From positions 1 through 32,220 of the forward strand of contig JBJCIZ010000995.1 of the NCBI GenBank assembly GCA_051294375.1: a DNA stretch of 32,220 nt. Reading direction: 5' to 3'. Positions 14,003 to 32,220 of this stretch are shown piece by piece. The DNA is from Paraspadella gotoi (Eukaryota > Animalia > Chaetognatha). Made by a program: the position numbers and the translations under genes. The notes under the pieces were generated by a model, which was not told the origin of the DNA, did not search any database, and saw nothing but the letters and a program-made list of their open reading frames with translations. The first letter of the stretch is position 1. Every line of letters starts with the position of its first letter.

Positions 14003-14677
14003 CGATGAATGATTCATCGCATCAATGAATGATTATCCTCGCATCAATGAATGACTAATTTTGACTATCATCGCATCAATGAATGATTATCATCGCATCA
14101 ATCATTTGGTTATCATCGATTCAATTATTGGTTAGCATCGCATTAATATTTTGTTATCATCGCATCAATAATTGGTAATCATTGCATTAATAATTGGTTA
14201 TCATCGCATAAATAAATTATTATTACATCAATAAATTATTATTACATCAATAAATTACTATTACATCAATCAATAAATTACTATTACATCAATCAATCAA
14301 TTATTATTACATCAATCTATCAATTACTATTACATTAATCAATCAATTACTATTACACCATTCAATCAATTACAATTACATCGATCAATTACTATTATAT
14401 CAAAAAATCAATTATTATTACATCAATCAATGAATTATTATTACACCAATTAATCAATTACTATTACATCAATCAATCAATCAATTACTATTATATCAAT
14501 TAATTAATATTATATCAATCAAACAATTAATATTATATCAATCAATTAATTACTATTAAATCAATCAAGCAATTTAAATATTACATCAATCTATCAGTTA
14601 CTATTGCATCAATCAATCAATAACTATTTCATCAATTAATTATTATTACATAAATAATTCGTTATCGCATCAATCAT
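14003..14677 (+). repeat. ~20-24-bp minisatellite grading from ATCATCGCATCAATGAATGATT to ATTACTATTACATCAATCAATCA
   Basis: Direct tandem units running into the assembly gap. Confidence 0.85.
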
Positions 14678-15326: not shown

Positions 15327-16651
15327 GATTAATTAATTATTGATTAATTAATTGACTAATTGATTAATAACTGATTAATTATTTGATTTATTTAATACAT
15401 CCTGCATATACATTTAATATAAAAAGAAAAGATCATAATCAATTAGTGAAACGGGTTTTTTGTTTTTTTTCCATTTAAACTCATTTCCACTCAAAAGATT
15501 CCATCGAAACTTGGTTTCCTGTTCAATCTCACACTTTTCTACTCACATACAAAATTCCAGGTCAATCGATAATTAAGTGGTAATAAGCTAACTTGGTCAA
15601 CTTGCCATAATTTAATCAACTTGCATATTGGTCAACTGACATAATTTGGTTAACTGACATAATTTGGTCAACTGACATAATTTGGTCAACTGACATAATT
15701 TGATCAATTAAGATAATTTGGTCAACCAGCATAATTTGGTCAACTGGCATAATTTTATCAACTGGCCTAATTTGGTCAACTGGCATAATTTGGTCAACAG
15801 GCATAAATTTGGTCAACTGGCATATTTTGGTCAACTGGCATATTTGGTCAACTTTAAGAATTTGGTCAATGGCATATTTTGTTAATTGGCAATTTGGTCA
15901 ATCAATCAAGCAATAAATCAATCAATCATCAATCAGAGATAGAGAGAAAATTTAAAAAATTCAAATAAATGTATCTTTTGGTTTTCTAATTTGAACTCTT
16001 TTCACTCCTACGATTCCATCAAAAAATTTATATCCAGCTTTATCACATACTTTCCTACCCACACACAAAATTCATTTTTCGATTTATCTATCCAATTTTT
16101 AATAAACATAATAATTATGAGTAAATTTAAGTAAAAATACTTCAAGTAAATATGACTTTTGTTTTTTCCATTTTAACTCATTTCCACTCGCACGATTCCA
16201 TCGAAACTTTATATCCAGCTCAATCACACACTTTCCTACCATCATACAAAATTTCAAGTCAATTGCCCTATCCACTCATGAGCAATTGGCGTTCAAATAG
16301 TGAAATATATTTTTTTCTTTTTTCCATTTAAACCAATTTCCACTCGCACGATTCCCTCGAAACTTCATATCATCTCAATCACAAGTTTTCTACCCACACA
16401 CAAAATTTAATATCAATCCATCCATCCAATCACGAGTAATTGGAGTTTTTTGCTAAGGTGGGACGGACGGACCGACGGACGGACGGACAGACGGACAGAC
16501 GGACGGACATCGTTTTTTTTTGCATAATTTATCATAATTCGATGTTCTGAATGATATAAGTGTGTGCCCGACAATATTGAGGGGGCGGACCGACGGACCG
16601 ACAAAGTGAATTATAGAGTCGGGATCTGCTGATAAGCAGATCCGATAAAAA
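15327..16651 (-). mobile_element. HINE family 1 copy, 5' half (rest lost in gap)
   Basis: 5' end GTCGGGATCTGCTGATAAGCAGATCCGATAAAAA at about 16618-16651, (GGAC)n at 16460-16508, 18-bp array at about 15590-15900. Confidence 0.8.
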
Positions 16652-18132: not shown

Positions 18133-21100
18133 GTAAGACTGCTTAGATGCAGGGCAAAAATAAATAACCACAACAAGTAAAGAAAAAAGAGAGAACCCAA
18201 AAAGGGTTCCCCCTAACAACTATCCAGAGTGTCCAGAGTATGCAATACAGAATTTCAAGGATCTGTTTTTACAAAAGATCCCTAATCTCCATTTAACCCT
18301 TTTTGGGTTCTTTATAATCTTTATATTCTCTTTTTCTAGCATTATGAAAACTTTAAAAAAAAATTATGTTTCCTGAGCTTGTGATGTCGTTTAAAGATTT
18401 AAAAATTATTTTCCCCTATATCCTTAAGGGCCAATATGGTCTCGTTCAAAGTTAAAAAACTTTGAATCCTGGCAACGATATATGAAAAACAACGCCGCCG
18501 ATTTGAAATTTATGGAATATTTTAAGTACATAAGAACAAATAAGAAACAAGAAATAATTAATTTGTAATTCATCATTAGTAATTAATTAACGATCGGTTT
18601 TCCAGATTGCACTCAACGAAAGGAGGAGCTTGGAAACCAAAAAATTGTGTTGCTAGACACTCAGTCGCTATTATTATTCCGTTCAGGTGAAATTCAATGA
18701 TGATGACGATGATTTATTTTTTCATCTTAACAATATTTTTTTGGAAGAGCTGTTGTCGGATATTGATATATGTTCACCCCGCCTATAAATATGACTCTGA
18801 AGAGACAGTAATTATTGATAAGTGTTAATGACAGAACCGTTCAATATAAGCAGTCCCTGAGCTTCGGATCAGGCTGTCCGTCCGCCCGTCCGTCCGTCCG
18901 TCCGTCCGTCCGCCCGTCCGTCCGTCCGTCGTTTCCTCTCCGTCTCCGTCCCACCTTAGCAAAAAACTCCAATTACTCGTGATTGGATGGATGGATTGGA
19001 ATGAAATTTGGTGTGTGGGTAGGAAAACGTTTGATTGAGGTGGATATGAAGTTTCGAGGGAATCGTGCGAGTGGAAATTGGTTTAATGGAAAAAACAAAA
19101 AAATATTTTTCACTATTTGAACGCCAATTGCTCATTGAGTGTGATAGGGCAATTGACTTGAAATTTTGTATGATGGTAGGAAAGTGTGTGATTGAGCTGG
19201 ATATAAAGTTTCGATGGAATCGTGCGAGTGGAAATGAGTTAAAATGGAAAAAACAAAAGTCATATTTACTTGAAGTTATTTTACTTAAATTTACTCATAA
19301 TTATTATGTTTATTAAAAAATTGGATAGAAAATCGAAATTGAATTTGTGTGTGGGTAGGAAAGTAGTTGATAAAGCTGGATAAAAAATTTTTGATGGAAT
19401 TGTAGGAGTAGAAAAGAGTTCAAATTAGAAAACCAAAAGACACATTTATTTGAATTTTTAAAGTTTCTCTCTCTCTATCTCTCTCTGATTGATTGATTGA
19501 TTGATTGACCAAATTAGCCAATTGACAAAATATGCCAGTTGACTAAATTCTTAAAGTTGACCAAATTATGCCAGTTGACCAAATTCTGCAAGTTGATCAA
19601 GTTATGCAAGTTGACCAAATTATGCCTGTTGACCAAATTATGCCAGTTGACAAATTATGCCATTGACCAAATTAGGCCAGTTGATAAAATTATGCCAGTT
19701 GACCAAATTATGCCAGTTGACCAAATTATCTTAATTGATCAAATTATGTCAGTTGACCAAATTATGTCAGTAGACCAAATTATGTCAGTTAACCAAATTA
19801 TGTCAGTTGACCAAATTATGCAAGTTGATTAAATTATGCAAGTTGACCAAGTTAGCTTATTACCACTTAATTATCGATTGACCTGGAATTTTGTATGTGA
19901 GTAGAAAAGTGTGTGATTGAACAGGAAACCAAGTTTCGATGGAATCTTTTGAGTGGAAATGAGTTTAAATGGAAAAAAACAAAAAACCTGTTTACAGAGG
20001 AGGATTTAGCCTGCCGTCAATTCTCCTCTTCTTCTTCTTCTTTTTCCTCCTCCTGCCCCTCAGTATATTTTTTCTAGCGATACATTCTCTAGTTTTTTAC
20101 TCTTCGTGAATATACCATTATTTTTCCCTCTATTTCTTCACGCCTTCAATACCCTCAAGGTTTCACTAACTAATTATGATTCTTTTTACTTTTATATTAA
20201 ATGTATATGCAGGATGTATTAATTAATCAATTAGTCAATTAATTAATCAATAATTAATTAATCAGTCAATCAATCCGTCCATCCGTCCCACCTTAGCAAA
20301 AAGCTCCAATAACTCGTGATTGGCTGGTTGGATTGGAATGAAATTTTGTGTGTGGGTAGGAAAGTTGTGATAAAGCTGGATATAGTTTCGACGGAATCGT
20401 GTGAGTGGAAATGAGTTTAAGTGGAAAAAACATAAGTCGCATTTACTAAAATATTTTTACTTATTTTAACCAATAAGTACTCTAATTAATCATAATTGGA
20501 TGGATAGATTGAGTTCAAATTTTTGTATGAGATAGGGTTATTTGTATTTTTCGTTTTTTTTTTCTTTACTGTTCATTTATTTTTTTTCTTTGTGTGTTGT
20601 GAGGATTTAAGATTTTTTGATGGAATCCGTAGGGAAGGTGGAGAGTTTCTGAAGAATAATTTATTTGTTTTTATTTCTTTTTGTTGTTGTTGATTGAATT
20701 TATTGCCTTGAATTGATGATTAATGTTATATGTTGCATTCCTTAGTGATTGGTTGAATTGAGTTGATTAATCGCTGTTGATATGTGTTTTAGATTGATTT
20801 ATGGTTGTTGCTGGTGTTTTTTGAATATTATGGTGACTTTGTGTTGTTATGTGTATGATGTCGTGACTATGCGTTGATTATTTGGTTGGTTAGTTATATT
20901 AATTAATGATTTGACTGGTTTTGTTGTGAAGAGGTGTGAATTGAGGAAGTTTGTGATCTTTGAGTGGATGAGTTTTTATGGAGTTTTTTGATTATGATCT
21001 TTTTCTTTTATATTAATGTATTGAGGATGAATTATTCTTTTGTTTTATTTTTATTTTTATTTTATTATTGGGTCTCTGTCTGTCTTTGAGCTAGGGGGTA

Positions 21101-24100
21101 GAAAATTGATTGCGTGTGACATTGGGGGTTGGATTGATATTTTTGTTTGGTGTAGTGTGTGTGAATAGTGTATTGATGTATGAGTATACTCGATGTCGTA
21201 GTAATAGAAAATTACAGGAAATGAAGTTAAATGGAAAATATAATTATGTATGCACTATAATATAACTTTGATCTTTTTTACTATATTTGATGGTATCGCA
21301 TGAGAGTTATATTTGAGATATTAATTTTGTGAGCGGGTAGGAAAGTGTGAGAAGAAGCTAGATATAAAGTTTTGATGGAATTGTGCCAGAGGAAATGAGT
21401 TTAAATAGAAAAAAACATAAGTCACATTTACTTGAATCTTTATTATTTATGATTACTAATTTATGATTACTAATAAATGTTTTAATTAATTAAATAATTA
21501 ATGTGAAAAAATTATGCAATTTAAAAAAATTATGCAAGTTGAAAAAATGATGCAAGCAGAAAAATGATGCAAGTTAAAAAAATCGTAAAAGCATAAGGAT
21601 CGTCGCAATTGCAAAGAGAGAGAGAGGAATAGAGAGCAGAAAAATGAGCATAAGGATCGTTGCAATTGCAATTGCTATGATTATGAATCAGTGACGAGGA
21701 AAAAGAGAGTGGGAGAGAGACATGTAATTAAAAGAGAAAAGAGAGAGAGAAAAAAATATGAAAATAAAAGAGAGAAAATTTGTTTGTTTTGATAAAACGT
21801 AAACAAAACATATTTAATAACTGTCCAGACTCAATTTTAAGCACATCGATGATGAGAAGCTGTATATAAATTTTCAGCTTCATACACCCAAATTTAGTCA
21901 TAAAAAAGGCGATCTATAATTTGGAACCCGGACGTCAACGACGACGACGACGCCACTTATGCACCAAAGCGTTACAATATCGTCGCAAACGCTAAGCGAT
22001 TGCGACGATAAAAAAATAATATAGATAATTAATTTTATTTTTTTAAAAAAAATATATGATATTTAATTAAAAATTAATCTCAAATAAACTAACAGATAAA
22101 TATTAGCTGAGCACTTTAATTCAAAATCATATCCAGCTTTAAAAAGTAATTTTATGTTTTATTACTTATCAAAAAAAAATTTTTTATAAAATTATATTAT
22201 AATAATAGCTTACTCAATATTTGATATATATTATTAATAGACAAATATGTAAAAATATTAACAAACATAATGCTTTAACTTTTAATACTTAATTAGAGTA
22301 TATATTAATATTTTTTTAAATATTTTTTTTATTTTTAAAATTTTTTATATTAAAATTATTATTAATTAAAAAAAAACTTATTTTGAAGCCTAATAATAGA
22401 ACTGCATTTTGAGAACATATTTGTATCTTTATTTTTAAGAAATAATCTGTTCAACGGTACTAATTGATTAATCTTTTTGAAAAAAAATTTCTTATTTTTA
22501 CTTATATTTCAATAACGAAAAGTAATATTAAGTTGGGAGAGGACTCAAATTAAAGCTTATGCTTTGTAGATTATGATAGACATGTAGACATTCAAATTGT
22601 AAGAATATTCACTAAACTACTTTGTGATTAAACTTTCTTTCGTTGTGTTTTGAGTTATTTGAGATTAAAGACGAAGTCTTGGAACATCAACGATTTTATT
22701 TTATGGTACATACAAGTTTCATCAGTGCTTTGACAATTCACAATTTTCATTTTTTTCAAATTGACTTTGGGAGAGAGAGAGAGAGAAGAAATGGCCAACA
22801 AAGATGTGAGACAGGACAGTGGTGAAATGTGAGGACAGGTTTAAGTTGGTAGAGAGAGAGAGAGAGAGAGAGAGAGAATGTGAGGGAAAAGAAATTAAAT
22901 TTTGTGAGTGAGGGAGAGAGAGAGAGAAAAGAGAGAGAGAGAGAGAGAGACAGAAGCAGAGTTTAACATTTGGTAAGAAAATTTACATGAGATAATGTAC
23001 AACAATAGTAAATTTAATAAATAAGTAAATGGACTTAAACTAAAATATTTAAATTAATTCAGATTAAAATAAATAAAGAAGTGAAATTTAGATGAAATGG
23101 AAATAAAGATGTTGAGGGATAGGTAAGTGAAGGAGTAAGTGAAAAATAAAAAAAAGAAAAAGCTCAAAACAACCCAGTCCGACTCTCCTCAGATCGGGCG
23201 CCCACCAAAAAGACGGTTACAGGAGGAGGAGAGGGAGTCTGTAATTCCCGTTGCAAAACAGGCAAAAACAGACCACCGCCTGCCTCGCCAACAGGCGAGA
23301 CGAGGGCCGTTGGCAGGTTTATCAGGCCTGAGAGATATTCGAGTTGCACTTGGCCTCTTTCCACCCGGGTCTCTACTGGACCCGTCCATGTCGCACTCCA
23401 CTACAATAGCCTCTCATCCTATGACAAACCAATGACCTGACCACATCGTCAGCATCCCCCATTATTGACCCAGGGGGGGGCAGCTCATTTTGAGATTTTT
23501 CTTTTTCTTATTTTTCACTTACTCTTTCACTTACCTATCCCTCAAAATCTTTATTTCCATTTAATCTAAATTTCACTTCTTTATTATCTGAATTAATTTA
23601 AATATTTTAGTTTGTTTAAGTCTGTTTACTTATTTATTAAATTTACTATTGTTGTACATTATCTAATGTAAATTTTCTTACCAAATGTTAACCTCTGCTT
23701 CTGTAAGGGGGAGCCTAATTCAGTAAGGTGGTTAAGAAATTTGAATTAAGCACCTGCTCAAACAAAAATTTAGACATTTTTAAAAAAAATTGAATAGACA
23801 AAAAATTTTAATATTACTCCTTACTCCATATATTAATTTTTTAATATTTATTTATAAATAGGGAAGGTAAAAAATTTTTTAAGGATTTTAAGGATCAGAT
23901 TCAGGTAGCTTGCAAAAAGTTGTCTATACAAAGTATAATTCTTTTTTCGATATTTTGATCATAAGTGTGTGAAAAATATGAAAAACTATTTATAATCATC
24001 ATTATCATCATTTTTCGATAATTTTATTACTTTTTCTTAATTTGGACCAAAAAAACAGAACAATTTTTGAAAGTTATAGTTATATTTTTTATTTAACTTT

Positions 24101-27100
24101 TTATGCTCTATCAGAATCCATCAAAAAAAGTTAAGATTGATTAAAAAAATTTTTTATCATTATAAAATAATATTGTAATTTTAATAGCAATAATAAAAGC
24201 ATTAAAATCGAACTTTTTTTAAAAATTATTTTTTTACCAAAAAGTAGACTTCAAGACTAAAGTTTTGAACCCCCGCCCCTATTGAATTTAATTTCATAAT
24301 AGATTTCTACTTCTGTCTCTCTCTCTCTCTCTCTCTTTTCTCTCTCTCTCTCCCTCAGTCACAAAATGTAATTTCTTTTCCCTCACATTCTCTCTCTCTC
24401 TCTACCGAACCTTAAACCTGTCCTGCACATTTCACACTGTCCTGTCTCACATCTTTGGGGCCATTTCTTCTCTCTCTCTCTCTCTCTCTCCCAAAGTCAA
24501 TTTGAAAAAACATGGAAAATTGTGAATTGTCAAAGCACTGATGAAGGCTTGAATAAAAGCCGAAACTTGTATGTACTCAACTAAACTCAACTAAACTACT
24601 TAGAAATTTTGTTAAAAAAATTTCCAAAACTTTAATTAGAATTTTAAAAAAATCCTGCCTTTATCGAATTTTACTGACCTAACACATTAGGCGTCTCTTG
24701 GGTATACTTTAAGATTTTATAGGTTTCAGAGATGGCACTTTTTTGTTTCTTTCACATCCTCTCTGCCCTACCGTGCATTGACATTATGTACCGGGATTGA
24801 TCCCCAATGGTACTTACCCTGCGCGAAGCGTGATGACAGCCTGTAAAACTCTCAAGAGTGGTTTCAAGCCCTGGACTTGTTCCATTGCTGCCGAGGGGGC
24901 ACAGAAGATATGGATCATAATCTATTTGATTAAACAATTTTATTTTTATTATTAAAACTTTAAAAAAAAATTGCAAGTTTTTTAAAAAATTTTTCTCCAA
25001 AATTTGCACTATCTGATTTTGTAAAGATATTTTTTTATGATGTGAAAATTATTTCTTTTTCGTTGTTTATAAGTTAAGAGAGAATCAGTTTTTGAATTGT
25101 GCAACGAATTTTTTATTTATTTAATACGGACATGTTTCGTCTCTGTTTCGAGTCTTCATCAGAGTCGAAACATGTTCGTATTAAATAAATAAAAAATTCG
25201 TTGCACAATTCAAAAACTTTGATTTTCTCTTAAGATATTTTTTATATTATTTTTAAACTTGTACAGAGCATATTATTATAATTTATATTATTATTTTAGT
25301 TTTATCCTAAGTCCCTTCCTCCTCCCTTTTCCAGAGATCGAGCGGAACATTTAAATCTTTTCCTCAAAATTCTTCATCCTCTTCTACAACGACAACAACT
25401 CGACTATCAAATTTTTATTGTTGAACAAATCGGAGATAAAAAAAAGCCTTTTAACAAAGGTAAGGTTGACGGCCATCTTTGGCTCTCCATATCAGTTTAA
25501 ATCCAGAATTGAGTAAGATTTTAGTTACAAAAATTAGGTTAGAGGTTAGGGAATAAATTAGAGGTAAGGTTTGGGGTTAGTTTAAGTTCTATGGTTAATG
25601 GTTATGGGTTAGTATTTGGGCGAAGAATTAAGGTTAAGGATATAAAATATTTGAGTTAAAGACCAGAAATGGGTCGCTATAAAGAAATAGAAATAGGTCA
25701 AATTTGTCAGCATCGTCAGTATGTATCCCTCTCTTGTCCACCTTTTGAAAATTAATATTTCCAATGTTATTAATTTCAAAATTGTAACATTATGGTAAAA
25801 CAACTATTCTTTCAATCTTATTTAAAAAGGCAAGTTGTTTAACGTTGGCTTCTTGACGGCAAAATCGATGCGTCCAGACATCCGTTGTTTCGTCTTCCAT
25901 GATGTAGATCTGGTTCCAGAGGATGAAAGAATGCTCTATCGATGTGACAACTCAGCGGCCATCCATTTGGCAGCGATTGTGGACACACTTGGCTATACGT
26001 AAGGAGAGGATTGGAATGGTCAAATACTCAATGTACTTAATGAACAATCTATATGAAGCAAAGATTTTGGTATAAAGCATATTTAATGCGCGAGTCCTGA
26101 GATATGCATTCATAAAATTTTTTTAGGATTTTTCTAGATGTGATACAATAATTATGTATTTACTTTGTATGTAAATTATAAAGCTGTAATAAGAATGGGA
26201 TTAGAATAATAATAATAATAGCTGCTCATTTGTACTTTGTTGGGTAATAATGATTTGCTCAATATTCAAATATCCATGATTACTATCCTTAATTGGCTCA
26301 GAAAAAATGAGCTCTTCTACTAAATCCATATGAAAGACTTATCTTAATTTTTTTTGTCGGGTCTGCCTATCAGCAGATCCCGACTCTATAATTCACTTTG
26401 TCGGTCCGTCGGTTCGCCCCCTCAATATTGTCGGGCACACACTTATATCATGTTAGAACATCGAATTATGATTAATTATGCAAAATAAACGATGTCCGTC
26501 CGTCCGTCCGTCCGTCCCACCTAAGCAAAAAACCTCCAATTACTACTGTGATGGATGGATGGTCATGGTTATTGAAATGGTCTATCTCCGAATGTTGTGG
26601 GTAGGAAACTGTCGTGATCGAGATGGATAATGAATGTTTCGAAAGGGAATCGTACGAGGCGCTAGTGGAAATTGGTTTAAATGAGACAACAACCACAAAA
26701 AAATAGAAATCACTATTTCTGAACAGCCGCAATCTGCTCATTGTGGATAGGGCAATTGAACTTGAAATCTTTGTATGATGGTAGCGAAAGAGTGTGTGAT
26801 GTAAGCTGGACTATAAAGTTTCGATGGGAATCGGGCTGAGTGGAAATATGAGTTAAAATGGAAAAACAAAATCTATTACTTAAAGTTTTTTTTACTTACA
26901 ATTTTACTTCATAATGATATACAATGTTTATTAAATAAATGGATAGATAAATCGAAATGAATTTTGTGTAGTGTGGGGTAGGAATAGATTTGATGAAAGC
27001 TGTCGATCAATAAATATTGATCACGTTCTCTTTTTCAGAATGAGCACTATCCGTAGGCAGTTGATAAAGAGTTCAAATTAGAACAACCAAAAAGACACAC

Positions 27101-28202
27101 TTTACTATTGAAGATTGTTAAAGTTAGGTCTCTCTCAGCATATCTCTCTTCTGACTGATCTGACTTGATTGACAAATTATGCCAATTGACAAAAACTATG
27201 CCAGTCGACCACAATTTCTTAAAGTTGAGCCAAATCTGTATGCTGTTGCACCAAATTCAGCGCGTCATGACCCTATTAATAATATGGGCCGGTTCCGTAG
27301 GCCGCCAAATTATCTTAACTTGTAGTCATCGACAAATCTATGTCAGTTGACCAATATAATTCGTTATGTCACGTTAGACCAAAATGATGTCAGTTTAACC
27401 AAATTTATCGTCACGTTGACCAAATTATGGCAAGTCTTTGATTAAATCCTACTGCACAGGTTGCTTTGAAACCAAGTTAACATTCACTTAATCGGGCACT
27501 TAATTATCGCCACTTTGACCTGGAAGTTTTGATATGTAAGTAGAAAAGTGTGTGATTGAACAGGAAACCTAAGCTTTTCGATTGGAATCTTTTGAGTGGA
27601 AATGAGTTTCAACGGAAAAAAACAAAAAACGTGTTTTACTAATTGATTATGATTCTTTTTCCTTTTATATTAAATGTATATGCAGGATGTATTAATAAAT
27701 CAAATAATTAATCTGTTAATTAATCAATTAGTCAATTAATTAATCAATAATTAATTAATCAGTCAATCAATCCGTCCATCTGTCCCACCTTAGCAAAAAG
27801 CTCCAGTAACTCGTGATTGGCTGGTTGGATTTGAATGAAATTTTGTGTGTGGGTAGGAAAGTGTGTGATAAAGCTGGATATAAAGATTCGTCGGAATCGT
27901 GTGAGTGGAAATGAGTTTAAGTGGAAATAAACATAAGTCACATTTACTTGAATTCATATTATTTATGATTACTAATTAATGATTTACTATAAATGTTTTA
28001 ATTAATTAATTAATTAATTAATGTGAAAAATGTGCAATTTTAAAAAAATTATGCAAGTTGAAAAATAATGCAAGCAGAAAAAGATGCAAGTTAAAAAAAA
28101 TCCTAAAAGCATATAGGATCGTCCGCAATTGCAAGAGAAAGAGAAGAGAGAGAGAGAGAGAGAGAAGAGCAGAAAAAAATGAGCATAAGGATCGTCGCAA
28201 TT

Positions 28203-29172: not shown

Positions 29173-30264
29173 TGATTTTAAATGTTAGGCAATAATAGAA
29201 ATATAACATCAAAGTTTATGATAACTAGACCGGAGGTGGTGAACAAATACTCGAAGTGACAACGATAAGGGATTTTATTAATATTCAAACACGAGGTAAA
29301 GTCAGGAGAATATTTTCAATAGTTCTTTGTGAATCCTACCATCTACTTTTCTCTCTCTCTCACTTCACCAAGCCCAGGGCCATGTTCTCATTGGCCACAA
29401 ACTGAGTCTCCCCATAACCCTTTTCTTCTCCTTATTGGCTCTTGGTCCTGTCCGGGTCATAGAGTTTATGAGAGCCTCTTTGTTCGGGTCTTGGTCCGCG
29501 TGGTCCTCGTGGGCTCTGTCTCCTGCCGCGGCTGCTGATGATGAATTCTCCTGCAGCTGCGAGTCCCTTATTCGTTGATGATAATATGGTGTTGAAGACG
29601 AAAATATGACAAAATAAACGGCGCGGTAAAATGAAAAACGCATTGGCGAGACGGTTGTTCAAAATACCGTTGGTTAAATTTTAATAAAAGTTTATTTAAA
29701 CTTAGAGCTAAAGATAATTTTTTTCAAAAACGGGACATGGGGTGGTCACTGCAGGTCCAAAGCCCTGAGTGCCAGCTGTCGGGAGATGCCTCACACCCCA
29801 GGTATCACACACGTCCCTCCGTTGCCATAATATAACTGATCGCGAAATAGGCCGTGAAACTGAGCGAAATTTTATCGCTAATTAAACCGCCAATTTACGA
29901 TTGATAAATAAAATAATTGATCAATCACTAGATCAATAAAATCATAAATCAATCAATCAGTTATAATGTAGTTCAGAAGATTACTTATCTTTCAGTCGGG
30001 ATCACCAATGTAGAAGATGAAAATATGAGAAAATAAAGGTAGGGAAAAAGGTGAAGAATTGTGACGATGTAAGAGAATTAGAAAAGTAGTGAGACTAGTT
30101 CTCTCCTGTCAGGAGTCCTGATCCACGTTAATCATCGCCCAGACCAACTTGACCTTACGGTCGCCTCGGCCCTATTACTGTGTCCGGTCAATCTAAAGTC
30201 ATTGCCAAAGCTAGGGCAAAGTGACCGTGTAGATAGACCGGCTCGGAGAAAAACTTTAATAGGA

Positions 30265-30960
30265 CTAAGCTCTGATGAAAAAAGCCCGAGGTTTTTTCAA
30301 TATATTCTTATACCGGCCAAGGTAGAATGATGGCAATATTGTTAATATTAAGTTTCCAAAAAATCCCACCATAAATATAGAAAATATTAACCAAAATCTT
30401 TGGAAAATCAACCCCTTCTTTGGAAGATTTTCGCCATAGAAGATTTTTCCTGAATCTGACTCCCGGTTGAAAACTCTTAGAATTCCGATCGTTAGCTCCT
30501 CTTTTACTTTAAATAAAAATTTCACCAAAATGGACTAATTCACTTTACCATGATCGTATCATATCAAAATAACCTAATAAAATGTAAAGAAAAATTTTGA
30601 GAGCCCTTCAGACACTTTGCCAAAGGATTCCAAAATTAGACCTCATTTGTTGAACAGGAACATACCTCAGTCACGTTTATATCGTTTTCAAGGAAAAAAA
30701 TCCCTTTCATTTCTATATAAAATCAGAGATGGAAAATTTCTCCGTCCAGAAGCAGTCTATTTGTTCTGGCTTGTTTGATATCAAGATGTTGATGATTTGA
30801 CAAGAGAAAAAAAATGCGACAGGATTGGAATCAAGTGTTTTTACATCGATATTTTACCAGAATTTTTACCAGGAGCGTTTATATTGTTTGGTAGTCAGAT
30901 TTGAACGAAAATCTCCATTGAAAAAGTCTTCCTCGATCTCTAAGAACGACGTAGACTCCT
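30265..30960 (-). pseudogene. Possible decayed membrane-protein (ionotropic-receptor-like) coding relic
   Basis: The 87-aa ORF has a TM-like segment FWLIFSIFMVGFFGNLILTILP. An upstream stop-interrupted frame reads ILISNKPEQIDCFWTEKFS. Resemblance judged by eye only. Confidence 0.22.
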
Positions 30961-32220
30961 AACTTTAAAGAGAAAGACCGGTGGTAAGTCGCCTCAATGG
31001 CAACAAATGCTTCTTTATCCTTGGCTGTTTCATTGGTGAATTTTTCTCTCTTTCTTTCTTAATCCCTTTTTATTTCTCTTTTGACTCTCTTTTTCCAGAG
31101 CACCCCATTTCTGTTTATTTTGGAGTTTAATTTTAATTTAAATATATATGTTTTTATCAAACTTAAAATATTGAATCTTAGCCATATCCTAAACCCTTAT
31201 CCTAAGCTCTCATCTGTAATTTCTAACCCTTATCCCCAATCATAATCACTAACTTAATCTCCAACCTTAACCACTAACCTAATCTTTATTCTTAACCTTC
31301 AACTCAATCTTTAACCCAAAAAAATAACCTAATTCCAAATTTAAGATGAAATGGGGCGTTCTTGGATAATAAGGCCAAAATGTTTTTGTTTCCTTGTTAA
31401 ACAATTCCCTATCTAATATCTATCTAATATCTATCTTATATCTAATAATTCCCGATCTAATACTTAAGGGAGTCGTCTTTTCATACAATTGAAACGTTCT
31501 TTGAAACATTATACCACTTCATTGATAGGGAAGCCAGGTAATCTTGGAGTAAATAAACTAGACTGTGAGAGAGTCTTGATTGAAAGCTTGCAGGGACCTG
31601 CTATGTCATTATCTTGTAAGAGTGATGGAGGCCCTTCACCACCAAAGTCTGTCCAAAGTCAGGGGCAAGATAGCTTATTTATTAAATGAATAGATAATTT
31701 TTATATTGGTTGTAGCAATTTCATACATAACCAACTTTAGGTTTTATTCCACTCTTAGGAATTCCAATCAAAAGAGACAGCGCTAAACAGCCGTTTCATC
31801 GCTACACGATGTTGAAGCATGTGAGCCGCAATACGAAAGCAAATCCGAAAAGGTGAGAGATAGAGAGAGAGACCGACCGAGGAAGGATAAAAAATTTAAA
31901 AAATATAGAAAAAGAGTTATGAGGACACTCGAGTTACTCAATGGGTACTAGACCTTGCCATATATGAAAAGTTTTTAAATCAAAAAACGAGTATTGTTTA
32001 AAAGGTGCCCATACACCATACACAAAATAAAATTTAAGGTTTTTCAATCAACAACATTGGACAGAGTATGAAAAAGACTTCCTCTGGCAATGTAAATCTG
32101 TATTAAAATTTAAATATGCTATTTGCTTATTTTATTATTTATTTCTTTAATAACATTCATGTTAATTCCCATTACATTTATTTGAGACCGGGAACGGATT
32201 GCTAGCATTTATACAATAAA

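What the first reader, a model, noticed from the sequence alone, without database searches (positions are those of the whole stretch)
24535..24574. Complete minimal hammerhead ribozyme in the sense strand of a glycosyltransferase intron
Seen: GCA CTGATGA A GGCTT GAATAA AAGCC GAAA C TT G TA TGT. It has both catalytic boxes, a perfect 5-bp stem II, a 2-bp stem III, a GUA cleavage triplet (cut after 24571) and a 3-bp stem I. Known: Penelope-like elements carry such minimal type-I hammerheads in their pseudo-LTRs, proposed to work as dimers. Inference: it lies on the + strand of the 18687-25334 intron, so it could cleave the host pre-mRNA co-transcriptionally. Its stem III (ACTTGT) is one base from the dimer-forming palindrome ACATGT.
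Basis: partly seen in the sequence, partly recalled or inferred. Interest (0 to 1): 0.8.

Follow-up and report, generated by a model that had tools for sequence, protein, structure and literature searches.

The report
Locked hammerhead in Penelope-type intron remnant
The small self-cutting RNA motif in this gene's intron is real, but it belongs to an abundant repeat that is likely a dead end-piece of a Penelope-like jumping gene, and its own mirror-image copy upstream is predicted to zip it shut, so it is likely ordinary transposon debris that does not cut the gene's RNA.

Summary
The motif is at 24535-24574, sense to a glycosyltransferase-7 intron (18687-25334), with all core nucleotides. 2 of 1000 window shuffles give an equal motif. 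It is not a stand-alone ribozyme. It ends the right arm of a 1967-bp head-to-head insertion (22623-24589) with a 12-bp target-site duplication. The left arm is an inverted twin, 96-98% identical by substitutions, whose hammerhead lost stem II. Contigs from four runs pile up on the core, so it belongs to an abundant repeat family. This layout is published for Penelope-like elements, and 27 of 55 look-alike hammerheads from other animals share it (controls 8 of 124). No Penelope protein was found, so family membership is inferred. Cutting of the host pre-mRNA is unlikely. Stem III closes a 2-nt loop, so a dimer is needed, and no intact sense partner exists in the intron. The ACUUGU dimer helix computes to +0.3 kcal/mol against -4.6 for ACAUGU. 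The twin, transcribed first, is predicted to pair with the core and the cleavage site. No cleavage was tested and no RNA reads were available. The scan has noted the same arrangement in other genomes. Ordinary.

The parts
24535..24574 (+). Minimal type-I hammerhead motif (core, 5-bp stem II, 3-bp stem I, GUA triplet, broken palindrome ACTTGT at 24565-24570)
22611..22622 (.). Left copy of 12-bp target-site duplication
   Evidence: longest shared word between the flanks, only two occurrences in the window; 94 of about 20000 random 100-nt pairs share a 12-mer
24590..24601 (.). Right copy of 12-bp target-site duplication; 24577-24589 is a 13-nt filler resembling a partial extra copy of the target
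22623..23169 (-). Inverted twin arm (likely inverted pseudo-LTR), with a longer 3' end: 88 nt from the cleavage position to the duplication, against 5 nt in the plus arm
22706..22728 (-). Twin's hammerhead with a 19-nt deletion between two GAA words that removes all of stem II
23170..23487 (+). GC-rich repeated segment upstream of the plus arm, with an 88-codon open frame of no recognised family; likely the 5'-truncated body of the element
   Evidence: repeat depth and pieces starting at 23168; no family match
23488..23704 (+). Plus arm, 5' part (95.8% identical to the twin by substitutions)
23705..24305 (.). Later insertion of a very high-copy repeat that splits the plus arm
   Evidence: absent from the twin; highest depth of the stretch, pieces ending at 23706 and 24301
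24306..24576 (+). Plus arm, 3' part, ending 5 nt after the cleavage position (97.9% identical to the twin by substitutions)
25074..25233 (-). Separate fold-back insertion with a second hammerhead (core from 25162, ACATGT palindrome, GUC triplet), antisense to the gene, and an inverted 3' half on the plus strand (from 25162)
   Evidence: (32.7 bits)
18687..25334 (+). Host intron of a glycosyltransferase family 7 gene

Best explanation
The hammerhead motif lies at the end of one arm of a head-to-head, duplication-flanked repeat insertion that is likely a 5'-truncated Penelope-like retroelement, and it is predicted to stay inactive in the host pre-mRNA because its inverted twin pairs with it. Shown: the motif, the two arms, the 12-bp duplication, the abundance of the family and the conservation of the core. 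Inferred: an RNA of the parent element was copied into this intron by target-primed reverse transcription, giving a truncated direct copy plus an adjacent inverted copy with a longer 3' end. In the parent element the ribozyme likely works as a dimer or with help from the element's protein. Predicted: when the host gene is transcribed the twin is made first, about 450 bp of duplex forms, core and cleavage site are paired, and only stem II loops out. The copy is also weakened: broken palindrome and a stem I shorter than in some relatives.
For: Arms 95.8% and 97.9% identical; 12-bp duplication; contigs that join 22609-22620 to 24607-24626 show the flanking repeat uninterrupted elsewhere. Summed contig depth in run X4 rises from 11,166 at 24515 to 152,155 at 24548 and ends at 24577, against about 80-95 on single-copy pieces; the same peak in 4 of 4 runs. 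27 of 55 distinct look-alike hammerheads have an upstream inverted partner, 2 a downstream one, controls 8 of 124. Layout (inverted 5'-truncated copy, one-sided tail, 8-10 bp duplications) described in PMC8557442 and PMC3846280 (passages). Folding of 22600-24640: pairing with the twin at least 0.95 for 24535-24542 and 24565-24576, stem I about 1e-23; same in a transcript ending at 24580; local duplex -116 kcal/mol. Single minimal hammerheads showed no cleavage in vitro, dimers low cleavage (PMC4209133); the anole element's hammerhead needed its protein and no RNA-seq ends mapped to the site (PMC11167929).
Against: No reverse transcriptase or GIY-YIG remnant was found in the insertion or the window, and none was contiguous with a look-alike. 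The difference between the two 3' ends is 83 nt, longer than the published 30-40 nt tail. Equilibrium folding over 1.8 kb ignores proteins, splicing kinetics and RNA editing. One single-copy-depth contig in run X9 carries the twin's tail with stem II intact, so the deletion may not be in all copies or alleles. Depth is not a copy number (tool's warning).
Confidence: 0.85

Rival explanations
1. The motif cleaves the host pre-mRNA in vivo at a low rate, helped by the element's protein or by pairing in trans with a family transcript, and lowers or alters expression of the glycosyltransferase.
For: All core letters and stem II are intact and GUA is the commonest triplet among look-alikes (49 of 76); it is sense in the intron; protein-assisted cleavage is published for one Penelope-like hammerhead.
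Against: Predicted pairing with the twin; even without the twin, stem I forms with probability below 0.001; homodimer helix +0.3 and heterodimer with ACAUGU -0.6 kcal/mol; no intact sense partner in the intron; the locus is one young copy of a large family with no sign of locus-specific conservation.
Confidence: 0.06
2. The repeat is a non-autonomous hammerhead element (non-LTR retrozyme or SINE-like unit) mobilised by a Penelope-like helper, not the end of an autonomous element. The copy would be equally inert.
For: No recognisable protein in 23170-23487; depth peaks on the ribozyme with many different flanks; retrozymes are reported as Penelope derivatives, with 42-44% of copies in introns in Xenopus (bioRxiv 10.64898/2026.07.22.740005, passages).
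Against: No tandem units here; the arrangement is inverted, not head-to-tail; retrozyme hammerheads are described as canonical with loop contacts and short tandem repeats (PMC7229834, passages), whereas this one is minimal; contigs continue upstream of 23168 in family sequence.
Confidence: 0.25
3. A chance match to the hammerhead consensus in AT-rich intron DNA.
For: The two boxes alone are within chance; Rfam lists no hammerhead here.
Against: 2 of 1000 shuffles; conservation peak on the core in four runs; covarying stem I in 68 look-alikes; a second member in the same window.
Confidence: 0.01

Closest known systems
Minimal type-I hammerheads (min-HHR) of metazoan Penelope-like elements (Cervera and De la Pena 2014, PMC4209133; parts 1-3 of 4 read, supplement not read)
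   Same: Core, extra nucleotide between 9 and 10.1, G10.1-C11.1, short stem I, tiny near-palindromic stem III; mostly solo copies; that paper also reports pairs on opposite strands 100-700 bp apart.
   Different: Palindrome broken by one letter; stem II 5 bp (7-8 bp in Schistosoma); the opposite-strand partner has lost stem II and lies 1.8 kb away because of a later insertion.
Endonuclease-positive Penelope-like insertions with inverted 5'-truncated pseudo-LTR, one-sided tail and target-site duplication (Arkhipova et al. 2013, PMC3846280; Craig et al. 2021, PMC8557442; passages read)
   Same: Head-to-head arms with 3' ends outward, unequal 3' ends, short duplication, hammerhead near the 3' end.
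   Different: Duplication 12 bp (8-10 bp in the Adineta cases read); 3' asymmetry 83 nt rather than 30-40; no protein-coding remnant recognised, so the clade is not known.
Metazoan non-LTR retrozymes (Cervera and De la Pena 2020, PMC7229834; Li et al. 2026 bioRxiv; passages read)
   Same: Type-I hammerhead in an abundant non-coding repeat; solo copies common in introns.
   Different: Not a tandem array; minimal rather than canonical ribozyme; inverted layout.
Conserved intronic hammerheads of amniotes (HH9/HH10; names recalled; mentioned in review PMC6765202, passage read)
   Same: Sense-strand hammerhead in an intron.
   Different: Those are few, highly conserved copies; this is one young copy of a large repeat family, predicted to be paired with its twin.

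Membership tests
Minimal type-I hammerhead | Core CUGANGA, GAAA, NUH in type-I order | tested here: met
Minimal type-I hammerhead | Extra nucleotide after A9 and G10.1-C11.1 opening stem II | tested here: met
Minimal type-I hammerhead | Palindromic 15.2-16.2 and loop 3 | tested here: not met
   ACTTGT; dimer helix +0.3 kcal/mol. Met by 71 of 76 look-alikes and by the second motif in the window
Minimal type-I hammerhead | Covariation of stems among relatives | tested here: met
   Stem I, not fixed by the search pattern: 4 of 4 pairs with changes on both sides, score 0.281 against 0.111, 0 of 500 shuffles (related rows inflate this). In the same organism only unphased hints and the second motif's stem II
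Minimal type-I hammerhead | Self-cleavage at the triplet | not testable with these tools
   no assay; only contigs, no raw RNA reads
Rfam hammerhead families | Score at a curated threshold | tested here: not met
   no hammerhead family listed
Penelope-like element | Telomerase-like reverse transcriptase with or without GIY-YIG endonuclease | tested here: inconclusive
   none found in the insertion; absence is expected for a 5'-truncated copy; no whole genome held
Penelope-like element | Inverted 5'-truncated copy adjacent at the 5' end | tested here: met
Penelope-like element | Target-site duplication around the whole unit | tested here: met
   12 bp; uninterrupted flanking repeat in other copies
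Penelope-like element | 30-40 nt tail at one end only | tested here: inconclusive
   one-sided extension present but 83 nt long
Penelope-like element | Hammerhead near the 3' end of the pseudo-LTR | tested here: met
Non-LTR retrozyme | Head-to-tail tandem units, each with a hammerhead | tested here: not met
   one intact sense copy only; other loci of the family could not be read
Conserved host-regulatory intronic hammerhead | Single-copy, conserved at the orthologous locus across species | tested here: not met
   multi-copy repeat; orthologous loci of other species were not available

The most novel reading that the evidence does not exclude
The inverted twin acts as a built-in antisense lock that lets a sense-strand hammerhead sit in an intron, and when it is opened (editing, helicase, or the element's own protein during a burst of transposon activity) the ribozyme cuts the glycosyltransferase pre-mRNA, tying host gene output to retroelement activity.
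Probability: 0.04. Interest if true: 0.65.

Novelty: new member of a known kind. Interest (0 to 1): 0.13.

Why it matters
As found, little: minimal hammerheads occur by the thousand in animal genomes as parts of Penelope-like elements, and the inverted layout is published. The locus is a tidy test case for an open point, whether such ribozymes ever cut host transcripts: it offers a sense copy, a natural antisense twin and a natural stem-II deletion. If cleavage of the host pre-mRNA were shown, it would be a rare direct case of a transposon ribozyme acting on a host gene.

Tried and rejected
No whole genome is held, so copies could not be counted or aligned. Run search: no RNA holder listed; one run is only guessed to be RNA; contigs cannot show RNA ends. 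The table of other letters was empty on the short stretch and cut to 40 of 278 rows on the long one, so per-site variation in the core and whether ACTTGT is a subfamily trait were not determined. Rfam: no hammerhead hit; the microRNA hits are the 25074-25233 hairpin, far below curated scores. The 88-codon frame at 23169-23432: one weak Pfam match below cut-off (Chisel), nothing in the homolog search or the Atlas. Look-alike loci: 120 of 189 frames of 110 aa or more were scanned; one reverse-transcriptase hit (L036, E 1.5e-4), which by translation looks Penelope-like (motifs recalled) but lies about 3 kb from the matched hammerhead behind unrelated DNA, so it is not counted as a link. I suspected a Penelope protein remnant at 29900-31000; translation, tblastn and Pfam gave no support. 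The core-like letters at 30272 lack GAAA (E 0.18): rejected. The organism was not identified; the only named homolog of one exon is a Clytia protein at 53%. Lunse et al. 2016 (PMC5785218) is not held; its dimer result is known here only from its title and a review passage. The covariance model's score for the finding itself (40.5 bits) is circular, because the training set was picked with the finding's letters. One paper search for an antisense lock on intronic hammerheads listed 3 unrelated reviews; one search does not show absence from print.

Full report
Observation. The 40 letters are at 24535-24574 as written. In hammerhead numbering C3 is 24538, an extra A follows A9, stem II (5 bp) opens with G10.1-C11.1, GAAA is 24562-24565 and the triplet is GUA, with the cut at 24571/24572. 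Stem I has 3 pairs, one of them G-U. Stem III is A15.1-U16.1 plus one C-G pair around a 2-nt loop, which a single strand cannot close (established knowledge). The boxes alone are within chance (2 matches, 1.24 expected). The full descriptor has one hit in the window; 2 of 1000 local dinucleotide shuffles give one as good, 38 of 1000 under a looser rule. Rfam lists no hammerhead. The host intron is real: GT at 18687, AG at 25333-25334, with three exons matching consecutive parts of Pfam Glyco_transf_7N. The motif is sense to the gene.

What surrounds it. Self-comparison shows two inverted matches, 23488-23704 with 23169-22950 and 24306-24545 with 22960-22718. They are one arm of about 490 bp, split on the plus side by a 600-bp insertion (23705-24305) that the twin lacks. 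By substitutions the arms are 95.8% and 97.9% identical, so the event is young. The twin carries the same hammerhead on the minus strand (22728->22706), with the same ACTTGT and GTA, but a 19-nt deletion between two GAA words has removed stem II. The whole unit, 22623-24589, is flanked by a 12-bp direct repeat at 22611 and 24590 that occurs nowhere else in the window; 94 of about 20000 random 100-nt pairs share such a word. Contigs that join 22609-22620 directly to 24607-24626 show that the flanking repeat is continuous in other copies. The plus arm ends 5 nt after the cleavage position, the twin 88 nt after it. Between the arms lies a GC-rich repeated segment (23170-23487) whose family contigs run on upstream of 23168: a 5' truncation point.

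It is one of many copies. Nine runs hold the stretch, none on record as RNA. On 24515-24600, 84, 24, 12 and 48 contigs were laid from four runs. Summed depth in X4 is 11,166 at 24515, 152,155 at 24548, 19,213 at 24575 and zero from 24578, against 79-95 on single-copy pieces and an exon bin. The tool warns that this is no copy number, but the shape is the same in 4 of 4 runs: the core is shared by more sequences than its flanks. Loose ends give unphased hints of variation. Some relatives have ACG or GCG before the core and others C-CG after the triplet, which would be a compensated stem I. Others continue TGT-TTTAC or TGT-TTTGC (9 contigs and 1 contig), which would extend stem I to 6-7 bp if their upstream letters equal the window's. 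A variant with only a loop change in stem II appears. Per-site tables were empty or cut, so I could not tell whether ACTTGT marks a subfamily.

Look-alikes elsewhere. A pattern fixing the core and four stem-II pairs found 107 loci in 58 of 64 parts of the metagenome collection; neighbours such as Sina, a 7tm_3 receptor and a mariner-type transposase indicate animal DNA. Of 76 distinct matches, 71 have ACATGT and 5 ACTTGT (the pattern allowed only these two); none of the 5 has stem I in the plain register; the triplet ends in A in 49, T 14, C 10, G 3. I aligned 68 of the 72 with full flanks, leaving out 4 whose triplet lies in another register. Stem I, which the pattern did not fix, shows changes on both sides in 4 of 4 pairs, covariation 0.281 against 0.111, 0 of 500 shuffles; relatedness of rows inflates this. 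Of 55 distinct matches with 600 nt upstream, 27 have an inverted partner reaching upstream and 2 one downstream; 8 of 124 control positions do. No Penelope protein was contiguous with any of them. A model from these rows finds the finding (40.5 bits, circular) and a second hammerhead at 25170->25121 (32.7 bits), with the twin at E 0.11.

Comparison with the literature. Cervera and De la Pena (PMC4209133, parts 1-3 of 4 read) describe minimal type-I hammerheads in Penelope-like pseudo-LTRs, thousands per genome, mostly single, some as pairs on opposite strands; a single motif gave no cleavage and dimers little. Craig et al. (PMC8557442, passages) and Arkhipova et al. (PMC3846280, passages) describe the adjacent inverted 5'-truncated copy, the one-sided 30-40 bp tail and 8-10 bp duplications. 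Frangieh et al. (PMC11167929, parts 1-2 of 4) found that an anole element's hammerhead cleaved only with the element's protein, was not needed for insertion in vitro, and left no ends in RNA-seq. Li et al. (bioRxiv 2026, part 1 and passages) place 42-44% of Xenopus retrozyme copies in introns, depleted relative to intron size. The insertion meets the structural features of a Penelope-like remnant. The defining protein was not found and the 3' asymmetry is 83 nt, so membership is likely, not shown; a non-autonomous derivative remains open.

Would it cut the host RNA? Four points say probably not. First, it needs a dimer, and the intron has one intact sense core; the only other sense fragment is a 3' half at 25167 inside a -98.8 kcal/mol hairpin. 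Second, the dimer helix is +0.3 kcal/mol for ACUUGU with itself, -0.6 with ACAUGU, against -4.6 for ACAUGU with itself. Third, without the twin stem I forms with probability below 0.001. Fourth, with the twin, which is transcribed first, folding of 22600-24640 pairs 24535-24542 and 24565-24576 with it at 0.95 or more, and 24543-24545 and 24562-24564 at 0.25-0.75; stem II alone loops out. A transcript ending at 24580 gives the same pairs. These are equilibrium predictions and ignore proteins and splicing kinetics. One single-copy-depth contig in X9 spans the twin's tail with stem II intact; it may be another copy or another allele, and an intact twin would pair even more fully.

Earlier notes of this scan. 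None near this place or like this sequence. A word search, made after I had recorded my reading, listed 11 findings in at least 9 genomes, 8 shown, with the same arrangement and verdict; they are unchecked notes, not support. Verdict: a real minimal hammerhead, a new member of a known kind, likely inert here. Interest 0.13.

Noticed in passing
window 25074-25233: Fold-back insertion of a related family: hammerhead on the minus strand (core from 25162, ACATGT, GUC) whose stem I 5' strand is replaced by an inverted copy of its own 3' half. Its stem II (GACTC with GAGTC in the inverted half) differs from the finding's by two compensated pairs. About 30 contigs have loose ends at 25162 in X4.
   Followed up: partly
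window 23705-24305: Very high-copy AT-rich repeat inserted into the plus arm, with a near-repeat of about 12 bp at its ends; highest depth in the stretch. Class not determined.
   Followed up: no
window 22500-22622 and 24601-24820: The element landed inside another abundant repeat; contigs join the two sides.
   Followed up: partly
window 23169-23432 (+): 88-codon open frame, S/P/T- and basic-rich, in a repeated segment; no family found. Two differences from the high-copy form are T for C at CG sites, as from CpG decay.
   Followed up: yes
L020:4768-4815, L028, L034, L085: Look-alike hammerheads with a longer, nearly palindromic 12-nt stem III region and the triplet shifted downstream.
   Followed up: no
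L036:600-2300 and L050: Broken Penelope-like reverse transcriptase and GIY-YIG frames in inverted arrangement (motifs recalled; Pfam RVT_1 E 1.5e-4).
   Followed up: partly
window 15457-16508 and 18904-19986: Large inverted repeat pair with 18-nt tandem arrays and CGTC microsatellites; further copies at 20262-20575, 26351-27950.
   Followed up: no
window 26800-27640: A copy of that repeat with many scattered small insertions, which looks like poorly corrected sequence.
   Followed up: no
window 14182-14670: 23-nt tandem array running into an assembly gap.
   Followed up: no
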